Positions 61,979 through 62,956 of a stretch of DNA of 64,000 nt are shown one piece after another (position 1 is the first letter of the stretch; the number at the start of each line of letters is the position of its first letter). The notes under the pieces were generated by a model, which was not told the DNA's origin, made no database searches, and worked only from the letters and a program-made list of their open reading frames with translations. This stretch comes from Candidatus Heimdallarchaeota archaeon (lineage in GTDB: Archaea > Asgardarchaeota > Heimdallarchaeia > JABLTI01): assembly GCA_019056785.1 (NCBI GenBank), contig DXJV01000025.1, positions 20,613 to 84,612 on the forward strand. The letters are read 5' to 3'. The translations under genes and the position numbers were made by a program.

Positions 61979-62014
61979 AAAAAAAAGCTTAGAAAATAAG
62001 AGACGAGAAGAAAA
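61979..62014 (-). terminator. Pyrimidine/U-rich tract after the 5S precursor
   Basis: Minus strand reads TTTTCTTCTCGTCTCTTATTTTCTAAGCTTTTTTTT immediately after the flanking stem. Confidence 0.5.
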
Positions 62015-62030
62015 TGCTAGAACCCATCGT

Positions 62031-62150
62031 TTCCGGGATCGGACGAGTCCGGGTGTTACCCTCCAGCTTTGACCGCGTCACAACGCAGCTCAATGATGTT
62101 CCCGAACGATCGCTCAGATCAGTAATTATCATTACGTATGGAGGCTTAAC
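62031..62150 (-). rRNA. rrf: 5S rRNA gene, circularly permuted (canonical 3' half 62150-62080 precedes canonical 5' half 62079-62031)
   Basis: Re-ordered sequence GACGCGGUCAAAGCUGGAGGGUAACACCCGGACUCGUCCGAUCCCGGAA|GUUAAGCCUCCAUACGUAAUGAUAAUUACUGAUCUGAGCGAUCGUUCGGGAACAUCAUUGAGCUGCGUUGU is 120 nt, has archaeal 5S motifs, and can form helices I-V. Confidence 0.93.
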
Positions 62151-62192
62151 TTCCAGCGATGAGTTCCGCAGTATTGTTGGTTTTGCCTTCAC

Positions 62193-62210
62193 TATTTAAA
62201 GTTTCCCTCT
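62193..62210 (-). promoter_or_regulatory. BRE/TATA promoter for the 5S precursor
   Basis: Minus strand AGAGGGAAAC-TTTAAATA. The TATA box lies about 25-30 nt upstream of the start of the flanking stem (~62170-62167). Confidence 0.75.
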
Positions 62211-62280
62211 TTTTGGGAAAATGAAAGAAAAATGCTTCTTATAAAAGAGCACTCTTAAGAAGCAAAAAACAATGCTTTTT

Positions 62281-62523
62281 CTATGCTTGTTTTTTAATGA
62301 AATAGTGATTGCAGCCATCTTCTTCAAAGACACCCAAGAGCTCGTTCCCGGTTCGATTGCACCAACGTGGGAAATCTTCTTTAGAGCCGGGGTCGCTTGA
62401 AAGGACCTCTAAGACTTGTCCCATCTCCATAGTTTTGATCTGCTTTTTGGCTTTCAAGATTGGCAATGGGCATTGTAGACCTCTTGCATCAAGAGTGACG
62501 TCAGTCTTTGGTTTTTCAGTCAT
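62281..62523 (-). CDS. tusA: Sulfur carrier protein TusA/SirA family
   Basis: LDARGLQCPLP, DPGSKEDFPRWC and YFIKK motifs. Confidence 0.93.
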   Translation of the reverse strand: MTEKPKTDVTLDARGLQCPLPILKAKKQIKTMEMGQVLEVLSSDPGSKEDFPRWCNRTGNELLGVFEEDGCNHYFIKKQA

Positions 62524-62536
62524 TTCTATATCACCT

Positions 62537-62956
62537 TTAAATGAATAATTGAATATCACAATCGGCAGCTATATCCAAAAAGCCAGCAGCACCCATGTAG
62601 CCTGTGACTTCAGGAATAAGATCCTCTTTTTTAATATTCATTAAGTCCATCGTTGCGGTGCAAGCATAAAATCGAACGTTTTCGGTTTCGAGGGTTAATT
62701 TAAGAAGTTCTGGTAAGGAAGCAATTCCCACCTTCTTGATTTTTCGTTTCATCATGCCAGTGAATGGGCGCATGATGCCTGGGAGCTTTGTTTTTTTCAA
62801 GCCATTCTTCTTAAGTAAATTTAATCCCCAAAAAGTGAAGAAAATATCGACCTCCATATCTGATGCCCCACCTGCTGAGGCAAGCATCAAGGGGGGGTAT
62901 GCTTTGTCTAATGTTCCAGAATGAACGACAATTGCCATTTTTTTGGTTTCAGCCAT
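62537..62956 (-). CDS. DsrE2-type (DsrE/F/DrsH-like) sulfurtransferase
   Basis: SGTLDKAYPPL, FFTFWGL, YACTATMDL and GAAGFL motifs. Confidence 0.9.
   Translation of the reverse strand: MAETKKMAIVVHSGTLDKAYPPLMLASAGGASDMEVDIFFTFWGLNLLKKNGLKKTKLPGIMRPFTGMMKRKIKKVGIASLPELLKLTLETENVRFYACTATMDLMNIKKEDLIPEVTGYMGAAGFLDIAADCDIQLFI

What the first reader, a model, noticed from the sequence alone, without database searches (positions are those of the whole stretch)
62031..62150. Circularly permuted 5S rRNA gene
Seen: the minus strand first gives GTTAAGCCTCCATACG...TTACTG...GCGA...GGGAAC...GCTGCGTTG (62150-62081), the second half of an archaeal 5S rRNA. Only then does it give (T)GACGCGGTCAAAGCTGGAGGGTAACACCCGGACTCGTCCGATCCCGGAA (62080-62031), the first half. 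The canonical 5' and 3' ends (helix I, GCTGCGT/ACGCGGT) are covalently joined through a TGTG tetraloop. The gene is opened instead just after the AA bulge of helix III, inside the conserved CCGGAA-GUUAAGCC motif. Swapping the halves gives a complete 120-nt 5S with helix II (UGGAGG/CCUCCA), helix III (CCGG/CCGG plus AA bulge), helix V (AAUGAU/AUCAUU) and a GCGA-capped helix IV; nothing appears to be missing. Known: permuted genes are established for tRNAs (Cyanidioschyzon merolae, Thermofilum pendens) and for the Thermoproteus SRP RNA. I do not know of a described permuted archaeal 5S gene of this kind. Inference: this is the functional 5S gene, and standard rRNA finders would miss it or call only a fragment.
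Basis: partly seen in the sequence, partly recalled or inferred. Interest (0 to 1): 0.96.

Follow-up and report, generated by a model that had tools for sequence, protein, structure and literature searches.

The report
Back-to-front 5S rRNA gene, circularised
This Heimdall-group Asgard archaeon writes its only detectable 5S ribosomal RNA gene back half first, between tRNA-intron-type cut-and-rejoin signals, and RNA data from close relatives show the product as a closed 120-nucleotide ring, which explains why 5S genes seemed to be missing from these relatives of eukaryotes.

Summary
On the minus strand, 62150-62081 is the 3' part of a 5S rRNA and 62080-62031 the 5' part. Helix I is closed by a UGUG loop. 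Rfam's 5S model fails its threshold (23.9 against 38 bits), and the genome (82.5% complete) has no other 5S candidate.

When the halves are swapped, the sequence matches a profile of 19 canonical Asgard 5S genes end to end (E 5e-19). The 5S fold is kept in 31 relatives: 99.1% of cells pair and 21 of 32 pairs show compensatory changes.

Leader and trailer form an 11-bp helix, a 4-bp helix and two 3-nt bulges, a bulge-helix-bulge-type motif. Nine of 10 tested outer pairs covary. The standard cleavage rule restores the canonical GGAA-GUUAAG junction as a 120-nt circle.

In four RNA libraries, 150-nt contigs (120 + k-1) cover only 62031-62150 and join 62150 back to 62031. That junction is absent from the DNA of 21 related genomes. 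EndA (two paralogs) and RtcB are encoded.

A permuted covariance model finds the same layout in most Asgard families. Canonical 5S genes occur in the others.

Still inferred: that the ring, not a re-opened linear form, sits in the ribosome.

No paper in the library describes this. This scan has already reported it in at least 14 other genomes.

The parts
62193..62207 (-). Archaeal promoter: BRE-like GGGAAAC followed by the TATA box TTTAAATA (62200-62193). Predicted transcription start is near 62170, a few nt upstream of the outer helix.
   Evidence: AAACTTTAAA(A/T)A lies at the same distance from the core in all 11 family members. The transcription start is inferred from the usual archaeal spacing of about 25 nt.
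62157..62167 (-). Leader strand of outer helix h (GGAACUCAUCG), pairing with the trailer at 62029-62019.
   Evidence: 11 consecutive pairs in all 8 family members scanned. 9 of 10 tested pairs show compensatory double changes, 91.5% of cells are paired, and the covariation score for the motif as a whole (h plus H) is 0.591 against at most 0.156 for slid controls.
62153..62156 (-). Leader strand of the central 4-bp helix H (CUGG), pairing with CCGG at 62036-62033.
   Evidence: 95% of cells paired in families f1 and f3. In other lineages the leader changes together with the 5S strand (CGUG/CACG, CAGG/CCUG, CCGC/GCGG), which fits only this pairing.
62150..62152 (-). 5' three-nucleotide bulge AA|G. 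Predicted cut is between 62151 and 62150, so the product starts with G62150 (Rfam 5S position 52).
   Evidence: Geometry scan. RNA contigs start and join exactly here, with a 4-letter ambiguity because GGAA occurs on both sides.
62081..62150 (-). 3' part of the 5S rRNA: GU of helix III, 3' strand of helix II, helices V and IV, loops E and D, 3' strand of helix I.
62072..62089 (-). Helix I as a closed hairpin. The canonical 3' and 5' ends are joined through the loop UGUG (62082-62079).
   Evidence: 7 pairs, 100% of cells paired, 3 pairs with double changes, including the loop-closing pair. Loop sequence and length vary among relatives.
62031..62080 (-). 5' part of the 5S rRNA: 5' strand of helix I, loop A, 5' strand of helix II, helix III with loop C, ending in CCGGAA (Rfam position 51).
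   Evidence: (RF00001 aligns model positions 1-51 here).
62033..62036 (-). CCGG: 3' strand of helix III in the mature fold, and 3' strand of central helix H in the precursor.
62030..62032 (-). 3' three-nucleotide bulge AA|A. Predicted cut is between 62031 and 62030, so the product ends with A62031.
   Evidence: The RNA joint runs from 62150 back to 62031.
62019..62029 (-). Trailer strand of outer helix h (CGAUGGGUUCU).
61979..62014 (-). T-runs after the trailer helix (UUUU at 62014-62011, U8 at 61986-61979): likely archaeal termination signals.
   Evidence: Sequence. Function is inferred; T-rich tracts follow the trailer in the relatives as well.

Best explanation
This is the organism's functional 5S rRNA gene in circularly permuted order. 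It is a stand-alone unit with its own TATA promoter. In the primary transcript, about 20 nt of leader and the first nucleotides of the trailer pair with each other and with the last CCGG of the 5S. This builds an outer helix (11 bp), a 4-bp central helix and two 3-nt bulges on opposite strands, which is the shape recognised by the archaeal tRNA-splicing endonuclease EndA. EndA cuts in both bulges (after A62151 and after A62031), and the RtcB ligase joins the new ends. This restores the canonical ...CCCGGAA-GUUAAGCC... continuity of helix III and gives a covalently closed 120-nt RNA with a complete 5S fold, in which helix I is capped by UGUG. Shown here: the permuted order, selection on the 5S fold, the covarying flank motif, presence of the enzymes, and the ligated junction as a closed 120-nt cycle in RNA of close relatives. 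Inferred: that EndA and RtcB do the cutting and joining, and that the ring itself, rather than a re-opened linear form, is the 5S built into the ribosome. I put the latter at about 0.6.
For: Permuted order and homology. No other 5S candidate in the genome (the permuted model gives one hit). No canonical 5S in 40 class relatives, including closed genomes G016 and G026, which instead carry two permuted copies each. Fold under selection: 99.1% of cells paired, 21 of 32 pairs with double changes, covariation 0.685 against 0.05-0.14 for slid controls. Flank motif: (9 of 10 outer pairs with double changes). In one search the cut-after-second-bulge-nucleotide rule gives the canonical junction in two different registers across lineages: CUGG-AA|G with CCGG-AA|A here, and CGUG-AA|A with CACG-GA|A elsewhere. 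RNA: in 4 RNA libraries from at least 2 habitats, all full-size contigs are 150 nt (120 + k-1, as expected for a circular unitig at k=31). They cover only 62031-62150, leave the flanks at zero, and carry the joint 62150 to 62031, 'goes back 120', at depth up to 422. The 21-nt junction is not in the DNA of the own genome or 20 relatives, even with 2 mismatches allowed. Enzymes: two EndA paralogs and one RtcB. Feasibility: E. coli ribosomes work with a 5S whose native ends are linked by a 4-nt connector (PMC7283268). Precedent: the permuted SRP RNA of Thermoproteus is circularised by the splicing endonuclease pathway and is functional as a circle (PMC4731332).
Against: The RNA contigs come from relatives (90-99% identical), not from this strain. 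Being contigs, they cannot show molecule ends, so a re-opened linear form cannot be excluded. No inner helix h' follows the bulges in this family (h' = 0), so the motif is a relaxed hBH form rather than the full hBHBh'. In 4 of 9 f3 sequences the fourth pair of the central helix is lost. In family f2 a hairpin is inserted between the outer and central helix in the leader. In this sequence the MFE fold pairs the leader CUGG with the other CCGG of helix III, so the motif competes with alternative folds. Cleavage by EndA and ligation by RtcB were not tested. The genome is only 82.5% complete.
Confidence: 0.8

Rival explanations
1. The ring is only a processing intermediate. After ligation the RNA is cut again in the helix I loop, giving an ordinary linear 5S with canonical ends, as happens with permuted tRNAs and with circular pre-16S and pre-23S rRNA.
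For: Circular pre-rRNA intermediates that are re-linearised are the textbook archaeal pathway for 16S and 23S (background of PMC12918454). Permuted tRNAs of Cyanidioschyzon are matured through a circle that is then opened (cited in PMC4267664). Contigs cannot show ends.
Against: There is no spacer to remove. Helix I is closed directly by 3-5 nt in this class (UGUG, UGCG, UUCG, AUU), and pairing covaries up to the loop-closing pair. In some other lineages the hairpin is lengthened by extra base pairs. No enzyme is known that opens a tetraloop to make 5S ends. The closed 120-nt cycle in the RNA assemblies needs loop-spanning words and junction-spanning words together, with no flank words, in all four libraries. 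A 5S with linked native ends is compatible with ribosome function.
Confidence: 0.17
2. The RNA is never ligated. The mature 5S is a linear, permuted molecule with its ends in helix III, held together by base pairing, like the permuted mitochondrial 5S of brown algae.
For: Permuted final products exist (brown-algal mitochondrial 5S, PMC4267664). The pairs G62150-C and U-A across the break could hold a nicked helix III.
Against: RNA contigs in four libraries carry the ligated junction, while the junction is absent from the DNA of 21 genomes. The flanks carry a covarying splicing-type motif placed exactly so that cutting and joining restore the canonical sequence. That placement would be pointless without ligation.
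Confidence: 0.02
3. The locus is an assembly artefact or a rearranged pseudogene, and the real 5S gene lies in the missing 17% of the genome.
For: The genome is 82.5% complete, in 102 contigs.
Against: The same layout is single-copy with homologous flanks in 11 of 11 family genomes and in all families of the class. This includes closed genomes that have no canonical 5S. There is strong compensatory covariation, a conserved promoter and abundant RNA.
Confidence: 0.01

Closest known systems
Permuted SRP RNA gene of Thermoproteus tenax, circularised by the tRNA splicing machinery (Plagens et al. 2015, eLife, PMC4731332)
   Same: A universal structured ribonucleoprotein RNA encoded with its 3' part ahead of its 5' part. 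It went undetected by standard models. Its termini lie next to a functionally important element, are processed at a splicing-endonuclease site and are ligated into a circle that is the functional form.
   Different: A different RNA (5S rRNA, a ribosome component). The layout is found across most families of a whole phylum rather than a few species of one genus. The motif here lacks a clear inner helix. Enzyme cleavage and protein binding have not been tested for the 5S.
Circularly permuted tRNA genes
   Same: The 3' half precedes the 5' half, leader and trailer form a BHB, and a circular RNA is made by the splicing endonuclease and ligase.
   Different: In tRNAs a linker between the natural ends is removed by RNase P and tRNase Z, so the mature RNA is linear. 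Here the natural ends are joined by only a 4-nt loop, and no opening activity is evident.
Circular pre-16S and pre-23S rRNA, and circular or permuted 23S rRNA in archaeal ribosomes (PMC7758197, PMC12918454, bioRxiv 10.64898/2026.03.23.713588)
   Same: BHB motifs in leader-trailer stems, EndA cleavage and ligation into circles. In some archaea the circular or permuted large rRNA stays in the ribosome.
   Different: Those genes are collinear with the canonical rRNA, so circularisation is not needed to restore sequence continuity. PMC12918454 states explicitly that this pathway is known for 16S and 23S 'but not 5S rRNAs'.
Permuted mitochondrial 5S rRNA of brown algae (Valach et al. 2014, PMC4267664)
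   Same: A 5S rRNA whose topology departs from the canonical one and which standard covariance models miss.
   Different: In that case helix I is replaced by a terminal hairpin and the ends sit at the three-way junction. The RNA product itself stays permuted and linear, with no BHB and no ligation. Here the break is inside helix III and is repaired at the RNA level.
Engineered cp5S rRNA in E. coli (Huang et al. 2020, PMC7283268)
   Same: The native 5S ends are linked by a 4-nt connector, and the ribosomes remain functional.
   Different: It is artificial, opened in loop C or D and fused into 23S rRNA. It is neither a free RNA nor a circle.

Membership tests
5S rRNA (Rfam RF00001) | Three-way junction fold with helices I-V and loops A-E | tested here: met
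   RNAalifold on 31 sequences recovers helices I, II, III (both parts), IV and V in permuted topology. 99.1% of cells are paired and 21 of 32 pairs show double changes.
5S rRNA (Rfam RF00001) | Full-length sequence homology to canonical 5S genes | tested here: met
   After swapping the halves there is one nhmmer hit over HMM 3-115, E 5.3e-19, against a profile of 19 canonical Asgard 5S genes. The predicted junction CCCGGAAGUUAAGCC is identical to that of canonical Asgard 5S such as L050.
5S rRNA (Rfam RF00001) | Contiguous gene scoring above the Rfam gathering score (38 bits) | tested here: not met
   0 hits at gathering threshold. The best hits are 23.9 and 16.7 bits for the two halves. The failure follows from the permutation.
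5S rRNA (Rfam RF00001) | Free 5' and 3' ends at the base of helix I | tested here: not met
   In the gene, helix I is a closed hairpin. RNA contigs span the loop and the ligated junction. Whether the loop is ever opened could not be tested.
Permuted RNA genes matured by BHB cleavage and circularisation (Thermoproteus SRP RNA type) | 3' part encoded upstream of the 5' part in one transcription unit | tested here: met
   A conserved promoter lies upstream of the leader.
Permuted RNA genes matured by BHB cleavage and circularisation (Thermoproteus SRP RNA type) | Leader and trailer form a bulge-helix-bulge motif whose cut sites restore the canonical sequence | tested here: met
   An 11-bp outer helix, a 4-bp central helix and two 3-nt bulges. 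Nine of 10 outer pairs covary, and the predicted product is a 120-nt circle with the canonical junction. Caveat: there is no inner helix h' in this family, so the motif is the relaxed hBH form.
Permuted RNA genes matured by BHB cleavage and circularisation (Thermoproteus SRP RNA type) | Junction-spanning RNA (circular product) observed | tested here: met
   The joint 62150 to 62031 is seen in contigs of 4 RNA libraries. The contigs are 150 nt (120 + 30) and the flanks have no cover. The junction is absent from the DNA of 21 genomes. The contigs are from close relatives, not this strain.
Permuted RNA genes matured by BHB cleavage and circularisation (Thermoproteus SRP RNA type) | Splicing endonuclease and RNA ligase present, and cleavage shown with the enzyme | tested here: inconclusive
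   The genes are present: two EndA paralogs (98.9 and 63.3 bits) and RtcB (584 bits). Cleavage by the enzyme cannot be tested with these tools.
Permuted tRNA-type maturation (circle re-opened to a linear mature RNA) | A removable linker between the natural 3' and 5' ends, and end-processing enzymes that cut there | tested here: not met
   Only a 3-5 nt loop closes helix I in this class, and in some other lineages the hairpin is extended by further pairs. Absence of any opening step is not proven.
Brown-algal mitochondrial permuted 5S (mtPerm-5S) | Helix I replaced by a terminal hairpin with ends at the three-way junction, and a linear permuted product | tested here: not met
   The break here is between Rfam positions 51 and 52 in helix III, and the ends are ligated in RNA.

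The most novel reading that the evidence does not exclude
The ribosomes of Heimdallarchaeia and most other Asgard lineages carry a covalently closed, endless 5S rRNA as their normal mature form. It is made from a permuted gene by the tRNA-splicing enzymes. The permutation is ancient within the phylum, with canonical genes kept or regained only in a few families.
Probability: 0.55. Interest if true: 0.93.

Novelty: new variant of a known kind. Interest (0 to 1): 0.88.

Why it matters
5S rRNA is a universal ribosome component, and its gene is regarded as trivially detectable in archaea. Here it is encoded back to front and, by the RNA evidence, repaired into a ring. This extends the moonlighting role of the tRNA-splicing machinery, known for permuted tRNAs and one SRP RNA, to a ribosomal RNA.

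It gives a concrete answer to a published puzzle: in the closed Heimdallarchaeum genomes, 5S genes 'could not be predicted' (PMC8813620). It also corrects the annotation and rRNA-based completeness scoring of Asgard genomes. It contradicts the current statement that archaeal circularisation concerns 16S and 23S 'but not 5S' (PMC12918454).

The group is the closest known archaeal relative of eukaryotes. The finding therefore bears on what the ribosome and its biogenesis looked like at the base of the eukaryotic lineage. It also offers a natural test of why 5S rRNA stays an autonomous molecule.

The permuted covariance model built here is a practical detector. It gives 74-130 bits in the permuted families, apart from weaker full-length hits (37-64 bits) in f13 and one f5 genome, and at most about 40 bits on canonical genes.

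Tried and rejected
- **Rfam on the swapped sequence:** It could not be run, because search_rna_families takes only held DNA and I did not type sequences. I replaced it with nhmmer against a profile of canonical Asgard 5S genes and with a permuted covariance model.
- **A 'canonical' 5S in class relative G036:** the hit (38.4 bits) is false. It is the 5' half of a permuted gene that sits at four contig ends (92.1 bits with the permuted model).
- **Inner helix h' of a full hBHBh' motif:** none in this family. I therefore describe the motif as relaxed.
- **Single-sequence MFE folding of the precursor:** it pairs the leader CUGG with the other CCGG of helix III, so it does not by itself show the motif. 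Lineages with different helix III sequences resolve the ambiguity in favour of the BHB pairing.
- **Family f2:** it did not fit the simple geometry in the automatic scan for several members, because a hairpin is inserted in the leader. I did not force a model on it.
- **Sub-threshold Rfam hits around the locus:** MCS4, PyrG leader, L10 leader and others are A/T-rich chance matches.
- **Literature searches:** searches for a described permuted or circular archaeal 5S found none.
- **DNA runs:** The DNA control for the back-joint rests on assembled genomes only.
- **Naming the Asgard families by taxon:** not attempted.

Full report
**1. The observation**

Read on the minus strand, the window gives the following in order:
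- a leader;
- GUUAAGCC at 62150 and the rest of the 3' part of a 5S rRNA down to 62081;
- directly after it, the 5' part from 62080 to CCCGGAA at 62031;
- a trailer.

The natural 3' and 5' ends are joined through the loop UGUG (62082-62079), so helix I is a closed hairpin (62089-62072).

Rfam finds no family at gathering threshold in the whole window. With relaxed thresholds, RF00001 aligns only model positions 1-51 to 62080-62031, at 23.9 bits against a cut-off of 38.

In the whole assembly the only two 5S candidates are the two halves of this locus, at 23.9 and 16.7 bits. The assembly has 102 contigs and is 82.5% complete.

**2. Is it a real 5S?**

I built a profile HMM from 19 canonical 5S genes of other Asgard genomes (loci). 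It matches the swapped sequence in a single hit (HMM 3-115, sequence 3-117, E 5.3e-19, 56.6 bits). In the genomic order it gives two partial hits in reversed order.

I collected 31 distinct permuted genes from three families of the class and aligned them with flanks (A1). RNAalifold on this alignment recovers the full 5S fold in permuted topology:
- helix II;
- both parts of helix III, including the G-C and U-A pairs that bridge the break;
- helices IV and V;
- the helix I hairpin.

Counting that structure gave the following:

| Measure | Result |
|---|---|
| Cells forming standard pairs | 99.1% (75.6% in shuffles) |
| Pairs with compensatory double changes | 21 of 32 |
| Covariation score | 0.685 |
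| Covariation score, partner slid by 1-3 columns | 0.05-0.14 |

The RNA is therefore under selection for the 5S fold.

**3. The flanks**

Leader and trailer of this locus pair as follows:

| Element | Leader side | 3' side |
|---|---|---|
| Outer helix (11 bp) | GGAACUCAUCG (62167-62157) | CGAUGGGUUCU (62029-62019) |
| Central helix (4 bp) | CUGG (62156-62153) | CCGG, last of the 5S (62036-62033) |
| Three-nucleotide bulge | AAG (62152-62150) | AAA (62032-62030) |

This is the geometry of the archaeal bulge-helix-bulge splicing motif. From established knowledge, the endonuclease cuts after the second nucleotide of each bulge.

On 20 sequences of families f1 and f3 (A2), the motif behaves as follows:
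- 92.5% of cells are paired;
- 9 of 10 outer-helix pairs show double changes;
- the covariation score is 0.591, against at most 0.156 for slid controls.

A geometry scan over 41 genes from across the phylum found the motif in all 8 members of this family scanned. Each has a 4/4 central helix, an 11-bp outer helix, a predicted 120-nt circle and the junction CCCGGAA.GUUAAGCC.

Other lineages use a register shifted by one nucleotide on both sides (CGUG-AA|A with CACG-GA|A). The same cleavage rule still yields the same canonical GGAAGUUAAG junction.

In those lineages the leader tetramer changes together with the 3' strand of helix III (CGUG/CACG, CAGG/CCUG, CCGC/GCGG). This excludes the alternative pairing with the 5' strand of helix III that the single-sequence MFE fold of this locus prefers.

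Departures from the textbook motif:
- there is no inner helix after the bulges in this family;
- the fourth central pair is lost in 4 of 9 f3 genes;
- many f2 genes have an extra hairpin between the outer and central helix in the leader.

**4. RNA evidence**

A search of public runs found DNA holders of the 401-bp stretch in several independent sediment and vent metagenomes. It also found six RNA libraries with a small share of its words.

I laid four of the RNA libraries on the locus: one aquatic library from 2019 and three wetland metatranscriptomes from 2020.
- Cover is confined to 62031-62150, apart from a few letters of overhang up to 62154 explained by the GGAA shared by leader and 5S end, and the flanks beyond are at zero.
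- Seven of the eight records are 150 nt long. That is 120 + 30, as expected for a circular unitig at k=31.
- Six contigs, in three of the four runs, carry a joint: five of them '62150 to 62031, goes back 120' (depth up to 422.6, with 4 ambiguous letters because GGAA occurs on both sides), and the sixth, in X19, a one-off variant (62152 to 62034, goes back 119).
- In the fourth run, the loose ends of its single contig spell the same junction.

The contigs differ from the window at a few positions in ways that match same-genus relatives, for example UGCG in place of UGUG in the helix I loop. They therefore come from close relatives rather than this strain.

The 21-nt junction sequence is not present in the assembled DNA of this genome or of 20 relatives, including all 11 other members of the family, even with two mismatches allowed.

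A closed 120-nt cycle needs words spanning the ligated junction and words spanning the helix I loop, with no flank words. The simplest reading is a circular RNA.

Contigs cannot show molecule ends. A fraction that is later re-opened therefore cannot be excluded.

**5. Enzymes and gene context**

The genome encodes two EndA-family proteins and one RtcB.
- The 196-aa EndA paralog keeps the Tyr/His/Lys pattern.
- The 207-aa paralog is 25% identical to it, has Val where the catalytic His aligns, and gives a weak Sen15 match.

This looks like a catalytic plus structural pair, as in the heterotetrameric endonucleases. From memory, those enzymes accept relaxed BHB motifs. I did not test this.

The gene is not part of an rRNA operon. 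It lies between a TusA-family gene and a ZnuA-family gene.

An AAACTTTAAA(A/T)A element sits at a fixed distance upstream in all 11 family members; here the TATA box is at 62200-62193. This predicts a transcription start just upstream of the outer helix. T-runs follow the trailer.

**6. Distribution**

RF00001 passes its cut-off in 49 of 151 Asgard genomes.

| Family | Genomes with a canonical 5S hit |
|---|---|
| f10 | 26/26 |
| f16 | 17/19 |
| f19 | 3/5 |
| f14, f26, f27 | also present |

None of the real hits are in this class. The one nominal hit, in G036, is the 5' half of a permuted gene.

I built a covariance model of the permuted core (R1) and ran it on the same 151 genomes. It finds full-length hits of 74-130 bits in f1-f4, f6-f9, f11, f12, f17, f18 and f20-f25. 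It finds weaker full-length hits (37-64 bits) in 17 of 25 f13 genomes and 58.5 bits in the single f5 genome. On canonical genes it finds only partial overlaps of 30-40 bits.

Inspection of 20 of these hits shows the same breakpoint and a leader-trailer motif in most of them.

The two closed genomes of the class (G016, G026) carry two permuted copies each and no canonical gene.

**7. Known or new**

The taxon label comes from earlier notes of this scan, which identify the genome as Heimdallarchaeia. I did not verify the name.

Full-text searches found no paper describing a permuted or circular archaeal 5S. Relevant published statements:
- Wu et al. 2022 state that 5S genes 'could not be predicted' in the closed Heimdallarchaeum genomes.
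- A 2026 paper on archaeal rRNA circularisation says the pathway concerns 16S and 23S 'but not 5S rRNAs'.

The mechanism itself is known for permuted tRNAs and for the Thermoproteus SRP RNA, which is functional as a circle. I therefore rate this a new variant of a known kind.

This scan has already reported the same thing in at least 14 other genomes. My tests here were made independently on this locus and agree with those reports.

**8. Verdict**

The gene is real, functional and permuted (about 0.97).

Its RNA is circularised (about 0.9, from relatives' RNA). The circularisation most likely uses EndA and RtcB at the flank motif (about 0.75).

I judge the ring more likely than not (about 0.6) to be the mature ribosomal form. 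Helix I is capped directly by a short, variable loop with covarying closing pairs. Engineered E. coli ribosomes tolerate exactly such a cap (PMC7283268). This last step is inferred, not shown.

Noticed in passing
G000 contigs C54:9444-9698 (L076:1474-2064, minus strand) and C47:17456-17713 (L077:1177-1800, plus strand): There are two EndA paralogs, 25% identical. One keeps the catalytic Tyr/His/Lys pattern. The other has Val at the His position and gives a weak Sen15 match (25.3 bits). This suggests a catalytic plus structural heteromeric splicing endonuclease, reminiscent of the crenarchaeal and eukaryotic enzymes.
   Followed up: partly
L016:1486-1678 (G015, family f3) and L110:101-250 (G067, family f13); 150-nt hits also in G126, G156, G057 and G140: Some permuted 5S genes carry an extra 29-30 nt at the same place on the 3' side of loop C/helix III, ending in CCGGG before AACCCGGAA. 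The insertions occur in two distant lineages. This could be a small intron or an expansion segment inside the 5S.
   Followed up: no
L019, L025, L038-L040 (family f2), leader regions: In many f2 genes a conserved hairpin (for example UCUGGA-UGUGU-UCCAGA) is inserted in the leader between the outer helix and the 4-bp central helix. This turns the 3' bulge into part of a three-way junction. The second copy in closed genome G016 (L045) has the simple geometry.
   Followed up: partly
G036 contigs C77:3922-4036, C90:13-127, C106:11-125, C132:13-127 (L116, L017, L044): A shorter permuted 5S (115 nt) sits at the ends of four contigs, so it is a repeated unit that breaks the assembly. Its 5' half alone scored 38.4 bits with RF00001 and could be mis-annotated as a normal 5S.
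   Followed up: partly
151 Asgard genomes: Canonical and permuted 5S genes have a complementary family distribution. Canonical genes are in f10, f16, f19, f14, f26 and f27, and permuted genes are in nearly all other families. The polarity of the change (one ancient permutation with reversals, or several origins) is open.
   Followed up: partly
window 62202-62297: An A/T-rich hairpin lies just after the stop of the TusA-family gene (62281-62559, minus strand). It gives sub-threshold Rfam matches (MCS4 27.8 bits, PyrG leader 21.5, L10 leader 16.7). I read these as chance hits on a terminator-like hairpin.
   Followed up: no
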